From: Yuukianura sp. NJ FZ-2021
Taxonomy: Eukaryota
Assembly (NCBI GenBank): GCA_046563655.1
Contig: CM102290.1
Location: 10,230,001 to 10,294,000, forward strand
Length of the DNA stretch: 64,000 bases
Direction: 5' to 3'
This document shows positions 53,387-62,200 of the stretch, piece by piece; the stretch's first letter is position 1, and every line of letters begins with the position of its first letter. The notes beneath the pieces were generated by a model, which was not told the DNA's origin, did not search any database, and saw only the letters and a program-made list of their open reading frames with translations. The position numbers and the translations under genes are program-made.

Positions 53387-55944
53387 TTCGAATGTTGAAT
53401 TTTTATACCTAAGTCTCGTCTTCCTGTTGTGTTTTGAAACTTCTAGAAGTAGAAATGAAAAATGTCAACTCGCGATTACGCAGCAATGTCGTTTAAATTG
53501 TCACTACTCACACGCCAATAATCAAATAAGAACAATTACTTACGAATATGATAATAACGCAAGAAGGAACACTGCAACAAAATAAAAAGAATTTTTACAC
53601 ACAATATCAATCACAATTTAGAAATACGATAATTCTGAATTCAATTGACAAAAGTTTTCCTCCAACAAGTATTACTTGACAGGAGTATGCGGGTGACTAA
53701 TTACTCTTGAAGTTAACTTCAATTAAGTAAAAACTCATCACTTTGTCGTTGTCCTTTCTGTTGATTTAACTTTTTAACTTCAAATTTGTTTTGCTTTTGA
53801 TTCTTTTCTATTTTCTCGAAATGAGTTCCCGCACTTGTCATCTCATACGTGTAGTAGAAGTGCCTAATTCTCAGAAAAGACTGAAAATACTCAACAGTTT
53901 GTTTTTCTCTTTCTGTAAAAAATACATTAATATAAAATTACATTATATATAATATAAATAACATAATAATAAATAATGTAAATAACAATATAAAATACAT
54001 TACAAAAAATACTGTAAGTTTTTCTAGTTTGCACGGTTTCTTGAAACAAAAAACCAAAAAACCATGTTTTTTTTTTTGAATAAACCAAAACCCAGTTTTA
54101 GTGCAAATTAGTGTGGAAAATGTGTATTTAGGTAATTGAAAAATTGTGAAAATTATAGGTAGTTAATTTTTCTACTTTTCACTAAAAATGGACAACTGAA
54201 GAGAAAAAGTCTTAAATAGTAGAAGACCAAGACGCAGAATATACTACATAATACATCAATTTGTGTAGAATCCGCTATTTCAAAGCGTAAAATTTCGAAA
54301 TTTCTGCGTTTTCCATTCTAATTTCTGCATTTGATTTAAAGGTTTAAAAAAAACAATTGGTTGGTTTAAACCAACGAAACCCTGAGAATAATTAAAATTA
54401 ATTACTTTGCAATTTACAAAGTAATTAATAATTAAAGTAAATAGTACTATTAATTCATACCATCTCCAAATTCACAAAGAACTTGAAAATCCAAAAAAAA
54501 AAAGACAAAGCAAGGAGTTAACTATGAAGTTTATCCGAAAATAACTTCATCAGAACCAGCCCCCTGCAAATGGCGCCCATAGCCACCAACGCAATTTTTT
54601 GTTTGTGACGTCACCAGCTGAAAAATACCGTAATCGTGAAATTGGAACCCGCTGGCATTTATGTAAACAACATGTGTCTTACGGGTTTCTATAGGACACC
54701 ACCAACAATTGGCAGAATTCCGGTATTTTCAGCGGGTGACGTCATTTTTTTTTCCACATGGCAACCAAACAAATTCTCCATTCGCACTACCTAGTAGTAT
54801 TCTATATAACCTTGATCAGAACTGACTTAATTTGTTATGAGTTTCAATTAAGAATCAGTTAACTCCGTTAATAATTGAGGAAGATGCATGAATTTATTAC
54901 TAATGAAGTTATTGAATGTCCAGGATTATTTTCCTTAGTGATCAACCACTTTCTTCAACAACTGCTTTCTTCGTAGCCACGAATTGTGGGCTCAATCGTA
55001 AAAACGAGAAGTGTTTCAGTAATCGTAATTATTAATCCTACCTAATTAGTTAAAACAATAATAGTAAGACCCAGTCACAACACTTGTAATGCATATATGG
55101 CCACTATTCAACTTAGTTATATCTCTTCCTTATTAGTAAATGTAATAAATCCATCAAGGGGACTATTATGTCACACTCACAACCTAAAACGTTTCTTCCC
55201 TCTGACACAACTTAAATCCCAATAGCTAAAACAACAAAGGTTTGATTAATGACGCCCCTTCGGTGGGTTCACATTCACAATGTGAATTTCACATACTACA
55301 GCTCAAGCATCACGAAACTAACTACACAGTCCACAAATTGATACATGCTAGACGTCACATTAATGTCTGTCACTAAATCGTTAATTGGTCTAGGGTTGAT
55401 AATACTTCCTGGAAGTTACTCTGAACAAACGAGCTCCATCAACTACTAGATTAGTTCAGGAGGGAATGAACAATTAAGAATAATAGAAACACTGTGAGGA
55501 CTTGTGACAATGACAATAGTACTCAAGACAAAAAGGTTCACTAGACACTGGCACATCGCCGCACGTCACCTTAGTTGACTGTAGTTAGCTAAAGGAAGGG
55601 AAGATGTTCGTCTCCATCTGTCACAAGCAAACTTTATAAAAGGAAGAAGTCAATGAATGAAGAAGTCGAACATGACCTTAGAAACTGGCCAATTACCCGC
55701 CTTAAGGACGTGTGATATGCGTCTAATAAACAATAATCGTTAAATTTAGTAACCACGATAACCGAGCTTTTGCAGTTAGTAAAAGATGCAGACATCGACA
55801 AAAAGAAACACCATCGTGAGTGGTGAAAAACGATCAGTGCAAAGTTGATCAGAAAAGTGTGGACTTTCAAACAAACAAAATACTGACTCAAGTTCGGTTG
55901 CCGTCGTTTGGGTTTTGTCAACAACTTTACTGAGAATGCGACAT

Positions 55945-56237
55945 TGAAATTCAAAAATGGTTTTGGTCAGCGTAGGAATGTCGTACAGTAACCTACAATA
56001 TATCAAACTTTAGGAAAAGACTTGATCTAGTTTCTCGCTGAAAAAAAATTACAAAATTTTAGTTGTAACTGTAAAAAAAATGGACCCAAACATTCCACCT
56101 CCATATTTACATAGATGGAACTAAAACTTTGTAATTTTTTTTCAGCGAGAAACTAGATCAAGTCTTTTCCTAAAGTTTGATATATTGTGGGTCATTGTAC
56201 GACCTTTCTACGATGTCCGAGATCATTTTTCATTTCA
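55945..56237. repeat. Long inverted repeat (foldback/MITE-like hairpin) just downstream of the Lin-7 stop codon
   Basis: 55995-56055 is the perfect 61-bp reverse complement of 56128-56188. Imperfect pairing extends outward to about 55945/56237 and inward toward a short loop. Confidence 0.9.
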
Positions 56238-56286
56238 TGTGTTACAGCGGCATTTTGACCCCCAGTTTCCAGGGTGTCCGCACACC

Positions 56287-59200
56287 TTAATACTGCTGTT
56301 GTCGTCTCCGAGCTGCACGTTGCTTGTCAAATCGAAGCTCCATTTCTTCCAGAACTTTTGGGGTATAACGAACTACAAGTTTGACTGAACCCTGAGCTGC
56401 CTTGAGTAATTCTACCGCCTTCTCATGGTTTTCACCGTCAACAGACTGAGAACAGAACAAAAATGTTTAGTTGTGTTAGATAAGTAGTAGAGTGTAGGAT
56501 CGGAGGTTTGCCTCATTTATTTTTAGCTCAGCCGCGGGGGCTAGTCGGGCGCAATATTGGGGAGGGGAAAAAACCTCAAAATGACAAAAAGTTTACCTCA
56601 TTTATTTTTAGCTCAGCCGCGGGGGCTAGTCGGGCGCAATATTGGGGAGGGAAAACCCCTCAAAAAATACATAATGACAAAATCTCAACATCTAAAATGA
56701 GATAATGTCAAAAGTGCCAACAACAAAAAGGCCGACATCAAAAAGGTCGACAACAAAAAAGTCAAACACAAGTATTGGAATTTTTCCATAGAAAATTCGA
56801 ACATTGACTCTAGCCTAGTATCTATATGCTTGTAACTACTTCGCTGCGACCGCTGTTTCGAATACCACACGGGTCAACGCTTGTGGTTAAGAAGTTACAA
56901 GTACTTAGATACAAGATTGGGGTCAATGTTATTGCTATTTTCAAATTTTTTTGGTTGAGGATTAAAAAAGTTCTAAAACCAATTCTCTAGAAAAATGTTT
57001 TTTGAAAAATTCTAAAATAGTAATTCAACCCTTTTCTTGGAAAAGGCTCGCTTCTGTTGGAAAACGTATCCCCCAATATTTTAAAAGATGGCTACAGAGT
57101 ACAAAGTATTTAAGCTGAAACGCTTGAACACCTCATGGCTACAGCATTGGATTTATCCAGCCCAGTCCTGGGGAAGCCTTTGGGCCATGTGAGCCAGCCC
57201 TTGGACGCCAGCCCTTGGACACCAGCCCTTGGACGCCAGCCCTTGGACACCAGCCCCTTGGACGCCAGCCCTTGGACGCCAGCCCTCAATTCGCATGAAT
57301 TTTTAACGTAATATAACAACTTCACTGCATAATACAATGGCCTCTCTACATAATACAATGGCCTCTCTGCATAATACAATGGCCTCTCTGTATAATACAA
57401 TGGCCTCTCTGTATAATACAATGGCCTCTCTGTATAATACAATGGCCTCTCTGTATAATACAATGGCCTCTCTGTATAATACAATGGCCTCTCTGCATAA
57501 TACAATGGCCTCTCTGCATATTACAATGGCCCAGTTGTATAATACCACAACGTCATTACATAATGCCGAGTTTATTCTGTACAACATAGCGAGTTTGCGA
57601 GAGTAAAGTCTAGACTTTGTCAATGTCACGGGAACTTACTCCGTGAGTACACCTTGCAGAGTTCTTCCTCGGGATTATTTCCCGCAGGTAACCTGCCTTC
57701 GAGAGTCAGATCATCGTCAATACCATGGTCACGTTGTATAATACCATGGTCGCATTGTATAATACCATGGTCACATTGTATAATACCATGGTCACGTTGT
57801 ATAATACCATGGTCACGTTGTATAATGCCATGGTCACGTTGTATAATACAATAACCTCACTGCATAATACAACATTTTTTGTCAATTTTACATCCAACCA
57901 CCACCACCACCACCACAACCCCAACGTGCCCACCCTTGCAAAAGTATAAATAGCGACGTTGACTTGCTCATCTCTCAGTTTCATTTCAGACGTTGAGCTG
58001 TGAAGACGTGAAGATTTTACCATCTGGAGCGGTTAGGCTAACAGTCATGGCGCAAAAATACATTCTTGTTCACCAAGACGACTACAACAGTCTACTGGAT
58101 CAGCTTGAGACATATGAGTCTCAGCAAAACAGCCCTTGCAAAAGTTATTTTGGAGAAAAGCAAATCCATGATGGTTTTTTGCTTGATACTAAACCCGTAC
58201 AATACTTACAGCAACATACAATGAACATGTCTCAGAGCCGTGGACCAATGGAGCTTCATGAGCGTAATTCGCGAGATTCTGGGAACAACATTCCAATCGA
58301 ACTTCAGAATCATATGATGCAAACGGAATTACGCCAGAACTGGGAAAATCAACGGAAGCAAAGGGAAGGCTACGTCAATGTGAACGTTGTAAACGATAGG
58401 CGGTTGAATGATATGGCTACAAGTCACTTTACCGGATGGGATGGTGGACCGGAAAAGTCAGCCAGAAAAACCGAAGACAGATATGACCGAATTACGACCT
58501 GGTCAGAAAATCCAACGAATGGTTGGTCAAATACTGTGGTAAAGCCGAATGACGCGCTCGAGATGCCATTTTCCAAAAGATTTAAAAAAGAATCGCAAAT
58601 AGCGAAAGATGAAACGCCGACAGCAGCACCGACAACTCCACCGTTTACTCTGGACCAGTTTTCAGCTGTTGGAAAGCAGCTAGCACAATTTTTTGTAGCA
58701 AATGGAGCAACCTTTGCGAACAATAGCGTTAGTCTGGGTGATGCCAACATACCCAGGAGCGAGTTCGAGGAGGGAATACGAAAACTTGCGGATGGAAGAT
58801 ATAAGTTGACAAGACAAATGATTCCTGTCATCGTAGACTTTATGATTCAGACAGGCATTCCAAAATATCTGCTTCCGATCAGCCACCGAGGCTTGCTCGG
58901 TCGAGATGAACCCGAAAAGCTTTCTCGAAATCGCCCGCACGTGGAAAGTGATGTAGAAAATGAAGAAGAAGAAGATGACGAGGAAGACGAGGGGGATGAA
59001 GAAGGGGAAGAAGAAGTAGAAGAAGAATTAGAAGAAGAGGAGGAAAACGAGGAAGACGAAAGGGATGAAGAAGGGGAAGAAGAGTATAGACAAACTGGAG
59101 GAGCTAAACCATCACCAGGTCCCATACGACATTATCAATTTCTCCACCAGATGAACCAACACTCCCCTATTGTACGCGAGACACTTCTCTCCACAGCGTC

Positions 59201-62200
59201 TCCTGGTCAAATTCTTGGGTTACACAAATGTGTTCAGGACGTATTCCAGGGCAACATTCCTATTGAGGCCACCGTCAAAAATATCTTGAGACCGCATCGA
59301 TATAAGATTAAACGTGTTGCAGAAGCTAAAGGATCGATTGAAGACAAGAAAAAACTACTTATACAGCACGGTGGGTTCCTGCCAGCTCTTCTCGCTGCCG
59401 CATTACCAATACTTGGAGAGTTTCTCACTAGCGTAATTTCGTAGAATTATACACCTTTATGACTGTATATTCGTTAGATTCCGAATTTTCAAAATAAAAA
59501 ACTTGAAAATAGAAATTTTATCGTGTAATGTGTTTATTCATTCATTCATTAGCATAGATTCGACAATTTTCAGGAAATATATTATCTCTAATGCGAAACA
59601 AATCATTTTGTCGTTGAGTTAAATCGATGAATAGATATCCATATTGCTTTAACATGCATTCCTTGTAGGCTTCTTCCATGGTTGTATTCTTCTTTCCTCC
59701 ATTCATCTGACGTCCAAGACAAGCTACAAATTGAGAGTCTCGCGGATTCTTCATTAGAGCAATGTAGTGACAGTTTGACGTGATTTCTTTCATATTCCTG
59801 TGAAAAAGTTTTGCACAAGAATGATGAGTGATACGTTGCGGTGATGCGAAGTCCTTGTGAACGCAGCTCCAACTTCTCCGTTTTTGCCTGCTTCATGCAT
59901 CAAATCGTCAAGGACGACGACTGACGGCTTGTCGGTTCCGTCATGCCATTTTTCAGGAAGTCCACGATGAAATTGTATAGTTGGAATCTTGGTCTTCAAT
60001 TCTCCAAACAGCGTAGGCTGGAACTCAGTGTAACAATACATGATACGTTCCAAGGGCTTGTCAATATTAGTCTCGATAATTTCGTTTCGTCGTAGAAGTA
60101 TTTGCTTCACAAGGGTGCTTTTGCCGCTCTGAGTCATTCCACTGATGCACATAGTAAACGGTGCAACCAAATGCGGGTCAAACTTTTTCCCAGAGTGTAC
60201 ATGTCGAAACATAGTAGATTTTTCCCGCTGATTCATGCATACCTGAAGCATTTTCGATACTGCGATGCTACTATGACAAGTTAACTTGTGTCGTTTCAAT
60301 GCGTCCCTTCGTGAGAATTGTCTGCAGCAAATATCGCACGCTGTACTGGTATCCATGATGTATAGTCCACAGAATCTTCACGTCTTCACAACTCAACGTC
60401 TGAAATGAAACTGAGAGATGAGCAAGTCCACGTCGCTATTTATACTTTTGCAAGGGTGGGCACGTTGGGGTTGTGGTGGTGGTGGTGGTGGTTGGATGTA
60501 AAATTGACAAAAAATGTTGTATTATGCAGTGAGGTTATTGTATTATACAACGTGACCATGGCATTATACAACGTGACCATGGTATTATACAACGTGACCA
60601 TGGTATTATACAATGTGACCATGGTATTATACAATGCGACCATGGTATTATACAACGTGACCATGGTATTGACGATGATCTGACTCTCGAAGGCAGGTTA
60701 CCTGCGGGAAATAATCCCGAGGAAGAACTCTGCAAGGTGTACTCACGGAGTAAGTTCCCGTGACATTGACAAAGTCTAGACTTTACTCTCGCAAACTCGC
60801 TATGTTGTACAGAATAAACTCGGCATTATGTAATGACGTTGTGGTATTATACAACTGGGCCATTGTAATATGCAGAGAGGCCATTGTATTATGCAGAGAG
60901 GCCATTGTATTATACAGAGAGGCCATTGTATTATACAGAGAGGCCATTGTATTATACAGAGAGGCCATTGTATTATACAGAGAGGCCATTGTATTATACA
61001 GAGAGGCCATTGTATTATGCAGAGAGGCCATTGTATTATGTAGAGAGGCCATTGTATTATGCAGTGAAGTTGTTATATTACGTTAAAAATTCATGCGAAT
61101 TGAGGGCTGGCGTCCAAGGGCTGGCGTCCAAGGGGCTGGTGTCCAAGGGCTGGCGTCCAAGGGCTGGTGTCCAAGGGCTGGCGTCCAAGGGCTGGCTCAC
61201 ATGGCCCAAAGGCTTCCCCAGGACTGGGCTGGATAAATCCAATGCTGTAGCCATGAGGTGTTCAAGCGTTTCAGCTTAAATACTTTGTACTCTGTAGCCA
61301 TCTTTTAAAATATTGGGGGATACGTTTTCCAACAGAAGCGAGCCTTTTCCAAGAAAAGGGTTGAATTACTATTTTAGAATTTTTCAAAAAACATTTTTCT
61401 AGAGAATTGGTTTTAGAACTTTTTAATCCTCAACCAAAAAAATTTGAAAATAGCAATAACATTGACCCCAATCTTGTATCTAAGTACTTGTAACTTCTTA
61501 ACCACAAGCGTTGACCCGTGTGGTATTCGAAACAGCGGTCGCAGCGAAGTAGTTACAAGCATATAGATACTAGGCTAGAGTCAATGTTCGAATTTTCTAT
61601 GGAAAAATTCCAATACTTGTGTTTGACTTTTTTGTTGTCGACCTTTTTGATGTCGGCCTTTTTGTTGTTGGCACTTTTGACATTATCTCATTTTAGATGT
61701 TGAGATTTTGTCATTATGTATTTTTTGAGGGGTTTTCCCTCCCCAATATTGCGCCCGACTAGCCCCCGCGGCTGAGCTAAAAATAAATGAGGTAAACTTT
61801 TTGTCATTTTGAGGTTTTTTCCCCTCCCCAATATTGCGCCCGACTAGCCCCCGCGGCTGAGCTAAAAATAAATGAGGCAAACCTCCGATCCTACACTCTA
61901 CTTAAGTACAAACTACTTGAGCAGTTTGTGATTATTTAGCTTGTTACACTTACGACACCGTTGACTGACAAAAGCTGGTCACCCCTTTTGAGACCCCCAT
62001 GTCGATCAGCAACTCCTCCAGGAATAATCCTAGAGATGTAGATGGGAGAGTTCTGTTCCCTTCCACCCATGACATTGAATCCTAGTCCTTCATCCGTCTT
62101 TGGAAGTTCGACCACACGGGGATGAGCATGACCTTCACTGGCAGCGAACGCAGCAACTGTGGCCTTTGCTGTCGCTGACGCTCGGATGTCCGGTGACCCT

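What the first reader, a model, noticed from the sequence alone, without database searches (positions are those of the whole stretch)
56486..61902. Miniature two-gene Maverick/Polinton-like element: 57% TIR, keeps a packaging ATPase, lacks polymerase, integrase, protease and capsid
Seen in the sequence: a 5,417-bp insertion with ~1.53-kb almost identical TIRs, AGT...ACT termini and a TSD. Its 2,356-bp core is filled almost entirely by two convergent intronless genes. Established knowledge: Mavericks/Polintons are typically 15-20 kb or more, begin with AG, and encode protein-primed PolB, rve integrase, an A32-like ATPase, an adenain-like protease and capsid proteins. Simple deletion derivatives usually leave gene fragments. 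Here there are no visible fragments: both genes have their own promoter, start, stop and poly(A) signal. Inference: this is an organised, helper-dependent mini-element (satellite or defective-interfering-like) that keeps virion-assembly genes rather than replication genes. The near-identical TIRs and clean TSD suggest recent insertion.
Basis: partly seen in the sequence, partly recalled or inferred. Interest (0 to 1): 0.9.

Follow-up and report, generated by a model that had tools for sequence, protein, structure and literature searches.

The report
Two-gene mini Polinton, multi-copy, recently mobile
A 5.4-kb stripped-down relative of the virus-like Polinton/Maverick transposons sits in an intron of an animal's Lin-7 gene, exists in roughly ten or more copies, is still absent from some chromosomes, and keeps only two virus-particle genes, so it must borrow its copying and insertion enzymes from a full-length helper.

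Summary
The structure is real. It is a 5,417-bp insertion (56486-61902) with 1,531/1,530-nt inverted ends that differ at 3 places, AGT...ACT termini, a TAAGT duplication and a 2,356-bp core, 94% of it coding.

Contigs of public runs show the empty site, with one TAAGT, in the same sample and in a second organism. They also show the whole two-gene core at about 10x and 34x the flank depth. So this is a young multi-copy family and not a one-off deletion.

The minus-strand gene is a Polinton-type A32-like packaging ATPase with a C2H2 finger. In this copy its frame is broken (188 + 83 aa). The run contigs are not broken there.

The 465-aa gene fuses two Polinton proteins: a ~250-aa protein of unknown function, which two relatives fuse to the ATPase, and an adintovirus GasderminX module (fold match E 3.7e-6).

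Both genes start just inside the inverted ends, each downstream of the same TATA box.

No polymerase, integrase, protease or capsid gene is present. Helper dependence is inferred; a satellite-like packaging role is unproven.

It is a new variant of a known kind.

The parts
56481..56485 (.). Left copy of the target-site duplication, TAAGT
   Evidence: Empty-site contigs keep a single TAAGT (tables 5 and 5c).
56486..58016 (+). Left terminal inverted repeat, 1,531 nt, starting AGTAGAG
   Evidence: 3 differences from the right arm.
56506..56674 (+). Two subterminal direct repeats of about 85 bp, mirrored at 61714-61882
   Evidence: D6, D7.
57193..57286 (+). 14-bp tandem array, 6.6 copies, mirrored at 61103-61196
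57325..57531 (+). 21-bp tandem array, 9.9 copies, mirrored at 60844-61064. Candidate protein-binding repeats (inference).
57719..57849 (+). Second 21-bp tandem array, 6.2 copies, mirrored at 60540-60670
57945..57952 (+). TATAAATA inside the left arm, 95 nt upstream of the ORF1 ATG
   Evidence: read from the sequence.
58047..59444 (+). ORF1, 465 aa. It comprises a P250 module (res 1 to about 295), an acidic linker (res 298-350) and a GasderminX module (res about 355-465).
59109..59441 (+). GasderminX module of ORF1, with the conserved Q-x-G-G-F-L motif and a hydrophobic tail
   Evidence: (148 of the 150 listed hits match here), (pLDDT 93.4; BFVD E 3.7e-6, TM 0.82/0.87).
59493..59498 (+). AATAAA downstream of the ORF1 stop
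59533..59538 (-). AATAAA (minus strand), 4 nt after the ATPase stop
59542..59793 (-). ATPase, C-terminal piece, 83 aa, frame -2
59790..60356 (-). ATPase, N-terminal piece, 188 aa, frame -3. It holds a C2H2 finger (C7-x2-C10-x12-H23-x4-H28), Walker A (GMTQSGKST) and Walker B (VVVLDD). The frame breaks near 59800.
60437..60444 (-). Mirror copy of the TATA box inside the right arm, 81 nt upstream of the ATPase ATG
   Evidence: the position follows from the arm alignment.
60373..61902 (-). Right terminal inverted repeat, 1,530 nt, ending CTCTACT
61903..61907 (.). Right copy of the target-site duplication, TAAGT
56446..61953 (-). Host intron of the Lin-7-like gene that holds the element. The neighbouring exons end at 56445 and start at 61954.
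   Evidence: run X5 contig joins 56445 to 61954 with GT..AG on the minus strand.

Best explanation
This is a non-autonomous, deletion-derived member of a Polinton/Maverick (adintovirus-like) lineage. Only the two long inverted ends and the two inward-facing genes next to them have survived. Shown: the structure, the duplication, the empty allele, the multi-copy state, the Polinton ancestry of both genes and the absence of all replication and integration genes. Inferred: it is copied and inserted in trans by the integrase (and probably the protein-primed polymerase) of a full-length relative in the same genome. That helper would recognise the shared AGTAGA... termini and the subterminal repeats. 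Also inferred: each gene is transcribed from the same TATA promoter carried in the inner end of each arm. The two products are virion-module proteins: a zinc-finger packaging ATPase, and a fusion of a ~250-aa ATPase-associated protein with GasderminX. GasderminX is a virion accessory protein whose pX-like tail would need the helper's protease. Some copies keep both genes open and the differences between copies are biased towards silent changes, so the genes were probably of use to the element recently. Other copies are decaying, including the ATPase of the window copy.
For: Structure and duplication.

Empty site: contigs of runs X1 and X2 (the sample that also holds the insertion) join 56476/56480 to 61903 and keep one TAAGT. 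Their depth is 92.8 to 125.1. The filled left junction has depth 86.1 and the flanks 184-212. Run X4, a second organism, has the site empty.

Copy number: the core contigs that bridge both arm/core junctions and the ORF1/ATPase spacer have 9-11x the flank depth in X1 and 33-35x in X4.

Polinton ancestry: 27 of 42 ATPase homologues carry Pox_A32, with a best E of 4.9e-67. rve integrase lies beside the ATPase in 18 of 41 related loci and PolB in 3 of 41. The GasderminX module lies next to the integrase in L005, L014, L022 and L025. Its fold matches the Terrapene adintovirus GasderminX (E 3.7e-6, TM 0.82/0.87).

Shared terminus: L022 is a TIR-bounded 10.5-kb relative with an integrase, and it also starts AGTAGA.

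Gene state: all four runs' contigs differ from the window at the ATPase break (table 4), so the break is private to this copy or an assembly error. ORF1 differs from the X1 contigs by 5 replacement and 6 silent changes (ratio 0.22, P 0.015). With the ATPase added the count is 6 and 7 (P 0.009).

Promoter and poly(A) signals.
Against: No helper with the same ends could be looked for, because no genome is held and none lies in the window. Trans-mobilisation therefore rests on the absence of enzymes plus the evidence of mobility.

The duplication is 5 bp if the arms are taken as perfect, and the usual Polinton value is 6 bp (passages of PMC3014272).

Decay is visible. The window's ATPase is broken. 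The only contig of organism B over ORF1 has an in-frame stop at codon 291. One X2 contig has a 4-letter insertion inside the GasderminX module.

Contig word depth is only a rough proxy for copy number; the tool itself says so. The silent-change bias rests on 13 differences, and one further difference in an X1 contig was not listed.

In relatives the two ORF1 modules are separate genes, in the other order and on the ATPase strand. ORF1 could therefore be a by-product of rearrangement.
Confidence: 0.78

Rival explanations
1. Satellite reading. The two genes are kept because they serve the mini-element. Its own packaging ATPase and the ATPase-associated P250 module would recognise the repeat arrays in its arms and steer the helper's capsids to the 5.4-kb genome, in the way phage satellites carry their own packaging-specificity factor.
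For: Both retained genes are from the virion module. P250 is fused to the ATPase in two relatives, L002 (527 aa) and L003 (508 aa), which points to a joint function. Each arm carries about 16 copies of related 21-bp units. The differences between copies are biased towards silent changes. The ATPase is not broken at this place in the contigs of all four runs. A contig of X5, a run that also holds spliced Lin-7, covers the core at depth 19.6 while the arms have 0-3. That is a weak hint of transcription.
Against: No particle, packaging signal or binding has been shown. Several copies carry breaks in one or other gene. The same layout follows from a single deletion between two terminal genes. The P250 fold gave no informative match.
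Confidence: 0.22
2. A cut-and-paste transposon of another superfamily with long inverted ends that captured two Polinton genes and is moved by its own family's transposase.
For: The duplication is 5 bp if the arms are perfect. Long arms full of subterminal tandem repeats are common in several cut-and-paste families (established knowledge, recalled).
Against: The ends are AG...CT, and the first six bases, AGTAGA, are shared with an integrase-bearing relative of the ATPase lineage. Both genes come from one virus module, and each starts 31 or 17 nt from an arm. No transposase remnant is present.
Confidence: 0.05
3. Assembly artefact, such as a false inverted duplication or a chimeric join.
For: Long, nearly identical inverted repeats are a known product of misassembly. 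The runs that hold the filled allele may be the data the assembly was made from.
Against: Separate contigs cover the left flank/arm junction and both arm/core junctions (table 8). The empty allele differs from the filled one by exactly the element plus one TAAGT. The same core occurs at high depth in a second organism.
Confidence: 0.02

Closest known systems
Polinton/Maverick elements, and adintoviruses with the Beta-class (GasderminX) virion module (Starrett et al. 2021, PMC8502044, passages read)
   Same: Long inverted ends, AG...CT termini, a 5-6-bp duplication, an A32-like packaging ATPase and GasderminX with a pX-like tail.
   Different: It has no protein-primed polymerase, integrase, adenain, hexon or penton. 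It is 5.4 kb against 10-20 kb. GasderminX is fused behind another protein. The ATPase carries a C2H2 finger.
Non-autonomous or polB-less Polinton derivatives. The Anolis survey (PMC3014272, passages) refers to 'Polinton elements (autonomous and nonautonomous)'. Polinton-related structural variants of at least 12 kb that lack polB are reported in butterflies (bioRxiv 10.1101/2025.02.07.637071, section 12 read). Repbase 'Polinton-N' entries are recalled and were not seen here.
   Same: Mobile without a full enzyme set, and polymorphic in presence or absence.
   Different: Those described in the text I read are large and keep most virion genes and the integrase. This one keeps two genes only, and both sit against promoter-bearing arms.
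L022, a TIR-bounded 10.5-kb metagenome element
   Same: ATPase 53% identical in its best segment, GasderminX gene, AGTAGA termini, and the ATPase as the first long inward-facing gene.
   Different: L022 has an integrase and about ten further ORFs. Its arms are 86 nt. GasderminX is a separate 121-aa gene on the ATPase strand.
Phage satellites that carry their own packaging factor, and adenovirus defective genomes (recalled; analogy only)
   Same: Helper-dependent genomes that keep the ends and packaging functions.
   Different: No evidence of particles or interference here. The hosts and lineages are different.

Membership tests
Autonomous Polinton/Maverick | [quoted passage not shown] | tested here: not met
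   The core is filled by two other genes. 0 of 168 tblastn hits by 883 ORFs of related loci fall outside those genes. None lies elsewhere in the window.
Autonomous Polinton/Maverick | Retrovirus-like rve integrase | tested here: not met
Autonomous Polinton/Maverick | Long terminal inverted repeats with 5'-AG...CT-3' ends | tested here: met
Autonomous Polinton/Maverick | 6-bp target-site duplication | tested here: inconclusive
   TAAGT (5 bp) with perfect arms; TAAGTA (6 bp) if the left boundary is slid by one base.
Autonomous Polinton/Maverick | A32/FtsK-HerA-type packaging ATPase | tested here: met
   Homologues down to E 4.9e-67, 27 of 42 with Pox_A32. The window's own N-terminal piece scores 18.8 bits, under the 22.8 cut-off. 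The gene is frame-broken here.
Autonomous Polinton/Maverick | [quoted passage not shown] | tested here: not met
   No ORF is left for them. No hit from the ORFs of related loci.
Non-autonomous Polinton derivative | Polinton-type ends without the enzymes, together with evidence of mobility and several copies | tested here: met
   Empty allele, half-depth filled junction, and core at 9-11x and 33-35x flank depth.
Non-autonomous Polinton derivative | An autonomous partner with matching termini in the same genome | not testable with these tools
   No genome is held. The nearest pointer is a related integrase-bearing metagenome element that shares AGTAGA.
Adintovirus GasderminX | The helical GasderminX fold | tested here: met
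   Model pLDDT 93.4. Match to the Terrapene adintovirus GasderminX in BFVD: E 3.7e-6, TM 0.82/0.87, rmsd 1.8 over 107 columns. The next hit has E 0.45.
Adintovirus GasderminX | pX-like C-terminal domain | tested here: inconclusive
   In 54 sequences Q is invariant and G-G-F-L nearly invariant, followed by a hydrophobic tail. The only PDB pointer is a chain named PX at E 2.8. The pX likeness itself is taken from passages of PMC8502044.
Virus satellite / defective interfering genome | Replication and packaging that depend on, and compete with, a helper virus | not testable with these tools
MITE | Short (under about 1 kb) and non-coding | tested here: not met
   5,417 bp with two genes.

The most novel reading that the evidence does not exclude
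The element is a satellite of an animal Polinton/adintovirus. It is a 5.4-kb genome that has shed replication, integration and capsid genes, but keeps its own zinc-finger packaging ATPase and an ATPase-partner/GasderminX fusion. Both are driven by promoters in its ends. With these it could claim the helper's capsids through the repeat arrays in its arms. This would be the animal-virus counterpart of phage satellites that carry their own packaging-specificity factor.
Probability: 0.2. Interest if true: 0.85.

Novelty: new variant of a known kind. Interest (0 to 1): 0.58.

Why it matters
Polintons and adintoviruses are widespread in animals, but neither their movement nor their particles have been observed directly. 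A small, young, insertion-polymorphic derivative implies that a working helper was active recently. It also narrows the cis requirements for mobilisation to 1.5-kb ends. It links a protein family of unknown function (P250) to the packaging ATPase through gene fusions. It shows a layout in which one promoter in the inverted ends serves both genes. If the satellite reading holds, it would extend virus-satellite parasitism to this virus class in animals.

Tried and rejected
Whole-genome copy search: no genome is held.

Word-index protein searches with ORF1 whole and with residues 1-295 found nothing. The exhaustive search did find relatives.

Pfam on ORF1 gave only sub-threshold matches to acidic low-complexity families.

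Protein atlas: best score 0.78 for ORF1, and no usable hit for residues 190-295.

PDB sequence profiles: nothing significant for either ORF1 module. Nothing for the 34-aa tail alone.

Foldseek against the PDB with the GasderminX model: no hit at E <= 0.001.

P250 model: mean pLDDT 57.9, and only residues about 200-285 are confident. VIA-align best Z was 4.5, with two adenovirus capsid entries at Z 3.6-3.7; this is too weak to use. BFVD gave nothing at E <= 0.001.

IMG/VR scan with the ATPase alignment: 2 weak loci only.

Inverted repeats of at least 40 nt were sought in nine related loci and found only in L022.

Complex prediction for the ATPase with the P250 domain was unavailable, so nothing was folded.

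Earlier findings of this scan: nothing.

No RNA holder is listed among the runs.

Literature: searches turned up no description of a two-gene Polinton mini-element. Kapitonov and Jurka 2006 is not held. Supplements were not opened.

Rejected: a programmed frameshift at the ATPase break, because the site is not a canonical slippery heptamer (read) and the run contigs differ from the window there.
Full report
OBSERVATION. The repeat finder gives two inverted arms, 56486-58016 and 60373-61902. A global alignment of the arms shows 1,531 against 1,530 nt with three differences: one indel in an A run at 56964, and substitutions at 57960 and 57998. The element starts AGTAGAG and ends CTCTACT. TAAGT stands directly outside both ends. 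If the left boundary is slid by one base, the duplication reads TAAGTA (6 bp). The arms make up 56.5% of the 5,417 bp and the 2,356-bp core is 94% coding. The arms are built from two subterminal 85-bp repeats, a 15-bp array, a 14-bp array (6.6 copies) and two related 21-bp arrays (9.9 and 6.2 copies). No part of the element recurs elsewhere in the 64-kb window: 0 of 73 blastn hits lie outside it.

HOST SITE. The minus strand to the right of the element encodes L27 and PDZ domains, so the host gene is Lin-7-like. A contig of run X5 joins 56445 to 61954 with GT..AG on the minus strand, and also removes a neighbouring 89-nt intron. The element therefore lies in an intron that would be 86 nt without it.

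IS IT REAL, MOBILE AND MULTI-COPY? No genome is held, so I used public runs (all are Logan contigs).

- Empty site. In X1 and X2 (organism A, one sample), contigs join 56476 or 56480 directly to 61903 and keep a single TAAGT. One form also has a GT-repeat difference in the flank. This is the empty site.
- Polymorphism. In X1 the empty-site contig has depth 92.8 and the filled left junction 86.1, while single-copy flanks have 184-212. The insertion is therefore heterozygous or segregating in that sample.
- Second organism. X4 (organism B, a different study) has the site empty at depth 3.2.
- Copy number. Contigs covering the core run across both arm/core junctions (57987-58235 and 60168-60386) and across the spacer between the two genes. 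Their depth is 1,745-2,148 in X1 and 113-118 in X4, which is 9-11x and 33-35x the flank contigs.

Word depth of contigs is a rough proxy only. Even so, the two-gene layout, and not merely the single genes, is what is multi-copy. The core contigs differ from the window copy by 15 letters in X1, 23 of 2,544 in X4 and 36 of 2,410 in X5. In X4 the flanks differ by 21 of 1,024 (2.05% against 0.90%, Fisher P 0.007). These results dispose of misassembly and of a one-off deletion.

THE ATPase. The minus-strand gene opens with a C2H2 finger, followed by Walker A and Walker B motifs. Of 42 homologues, 27 carry Pox_A32, and the best is 77% identical at E 4.9e-67. Some relatives also have the finger (P0003, P0005, P0006, P0025). 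In this copy the frame breaks near 59800. Three of three intact relatives align to frame -3 up to 59802 and to frame -2 from there on. At that place the contigs of all four runs differ from the window over their full depth (table 4). The break is therefore private to this copy or is an assembly error.

Lineage of the ATPase: a metagenome scan gave 96 confirmed relatives, of which 80 loci were kept. I annotated 41 of these 80: the 12 and the 29 others of at least 3 kb. Of the 41, 18 have an rve integrase and 3 a DNA_pol_B_2 polymerase on the same contig. This is a Polinton context. L022 is a 10.5-kb relative bounded by 86-nt inverted ends. Its ends also begin AGTAGA, and its ATPase is the first long inward-facing ORF.

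ORF1. The 465-aa plus-strand ORF has no Pfam family; its only matches are sub-threshold hits to acidic low-complexity families. An exhaustive phmmer search found 438 proteins at E <= 0.001. Of the 150 listed, 148 match residues of about 285-465 and 2 match 167-313.

- C-terminal module. It belongs to a family of ~110-aa proteins in which Q is invariant, G-G-F-L is nearly invariant, and a hydrophobic tail follows. Its AlphaFold model (pLDDT 93.4) matches 'GasderminX [Terrapene box turtle adintovirus]' in BFVD at E 3.7e-6, TM 0.82/0.87, with the next hit at E 0.45. The PDB gave nothing.
- What is known about GasderminX. Passages of Starrett et al. 2021 (PMC8502044) describe it as a hallmark accessory gene of Beta-class adintovirus virion modules. 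They say it typically has a domain like the adenovirus core precursor pX near the C-terminus. That adenovirus pX is cut by the viral protease after Gly-Gly is my recollection and was not tested here.
- Position in related loci. This ~110-aa gene sits beside the integrase in L005, L014, L022 and L025, and just after the ATPase in L028.
- N-terminal module. Residues 1 to about 295 match a ~250-aa family ('P250': P0047, P0060, L025:12976-13707). In L002 (527 aa) and L003 (508 aa) this family is fused behind the ATPase in a single ORF. Its model is confident only for residues of about 200-285 and matches nothing informative.

ORF1 is thus P250, an acidic linker and GasderminX. In relatives these are separate genes, in the order GasderminX then P250, and on the ATPase strand. 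Other GasderminX proteins with zinc-finger or acidic N-terminal extensions do exist (P0054, P0057, P0073, P0076).

EXPRESSION SIGNALS. TATAAATA lies at 57945-57952 inside the left arm, and so again at 60437-60444 in the right arm. The two ATGs follow 95 and 81 nt downstream, 31 and 17 nt beyond the arm ends. AATAAA follows each stop codon. So one promoter, duplicated by the inverted ends, can serve both genes; this is inferred. X5 holds spliced Lin-7 and therefore contains cDNA. It has a 2,410-nt contig over the core at depth 19.6, while the arms have 0-3. That is a weak hint of transcription from some copy.

SELECTION AND DECAY. Against the X1 contigs, ORF1 shows 5 replacement and 6 silent differences (ratio 0.22, P 0.015). 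With the ATPase added the count is 6 and 7 (P 0.009). One further X1 difference was not listed. Evidence against function also exists. The only X4 contig over ORF1 has an in-frame stop at codon 291, at the boundary of the two modules. One X2 contig has a 4-letter insertion in the GasderminX module. The window's ATPase is broken.

INTERPRETATION. The element is a helper-dependent Polinton derivative. Its tidy look needs no special selection. If the parent had promoter-bearing arms with one inward-facing gene at each end, a single deletion between the two 3' ends would give exactly this layout. The different order and strand of the ORF1 modules in relatives shows that rearrangement has occurred in this lineage. 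Whether the two virion genes now serve the mini-element, which is the satellite reading, remains open. The ATPase-P250 fusions, the repeat arrays and the silent-change bias speak for it. The broken copies speak against it.

NOVELTY. Non-autonomous and polB-less Polinton derivatives are on record: passages of PMC3014272 and section 12 of bioRxiv 10.1101/2025.02.07.637071. My four searches found no two-gene form with promoter-bearing ends. I could not read Repbase or Kapitonov and Jurka 2006. I therefore rate this a new variant of a known kind.

Noticed in passing
window 55700-56284: A 585-bp stretch holding a 130-nt hairpin-like inverted repeat (55948-56077 / 56106-56235). It has very high word depth in the runs (18,000-42,000). 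Contigs of X1, X2 and X5 skip it at full flank depth, with GT..AG-like ends on the minus strand. It is either a high-copy MITE-like insertion that is absent from that sample or an intron in the Lin-7 3' region.
   Followed up: partly
L002:144-1724 and L003:790-2313: Single ORFs of 527 and 508 aa that fuse the zinc-finger packaging ATPase with the whole P250 module. This gene fusion links a Polinton protein of unknown function to genome packaging.
   Followed up: partly
L022:1-10500: A 10.5-kb metagenome element bounded by 86-nt inverted ends that start AGTAGA. It carries the ATPase, an rve integrase, GasderminX and about ten further ORFs. Its longest ORF is 503 aa, so it may be a complete polymerase-less relative.
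   Followed up: partly
proteins P0057, P0073, P0076: GasderminX modules preceded by a FLYWCH-like or C2H2 zinc finger and a long acidic stretch. This architecture recurs and parallels the acidic linker of ORF1. The FLYWCH label is my reading of the sequence and was not tested.
   Followed up: no
window 59803 (run X2, table 7): A contig that matches the N-terminal part of the ATPase but continues with unlike sequence exactly at the break. This suggests a second, more distant ATPase gene in the same genome, possibly that of a full-length relative.
   Followed up: no
L025:8631-9476: A BIR + RING (inhibitor-of-apoptosis-like) ORF inside a 14.5-kb Polinton-like contig, next to the ATPase.
   Followed up: no
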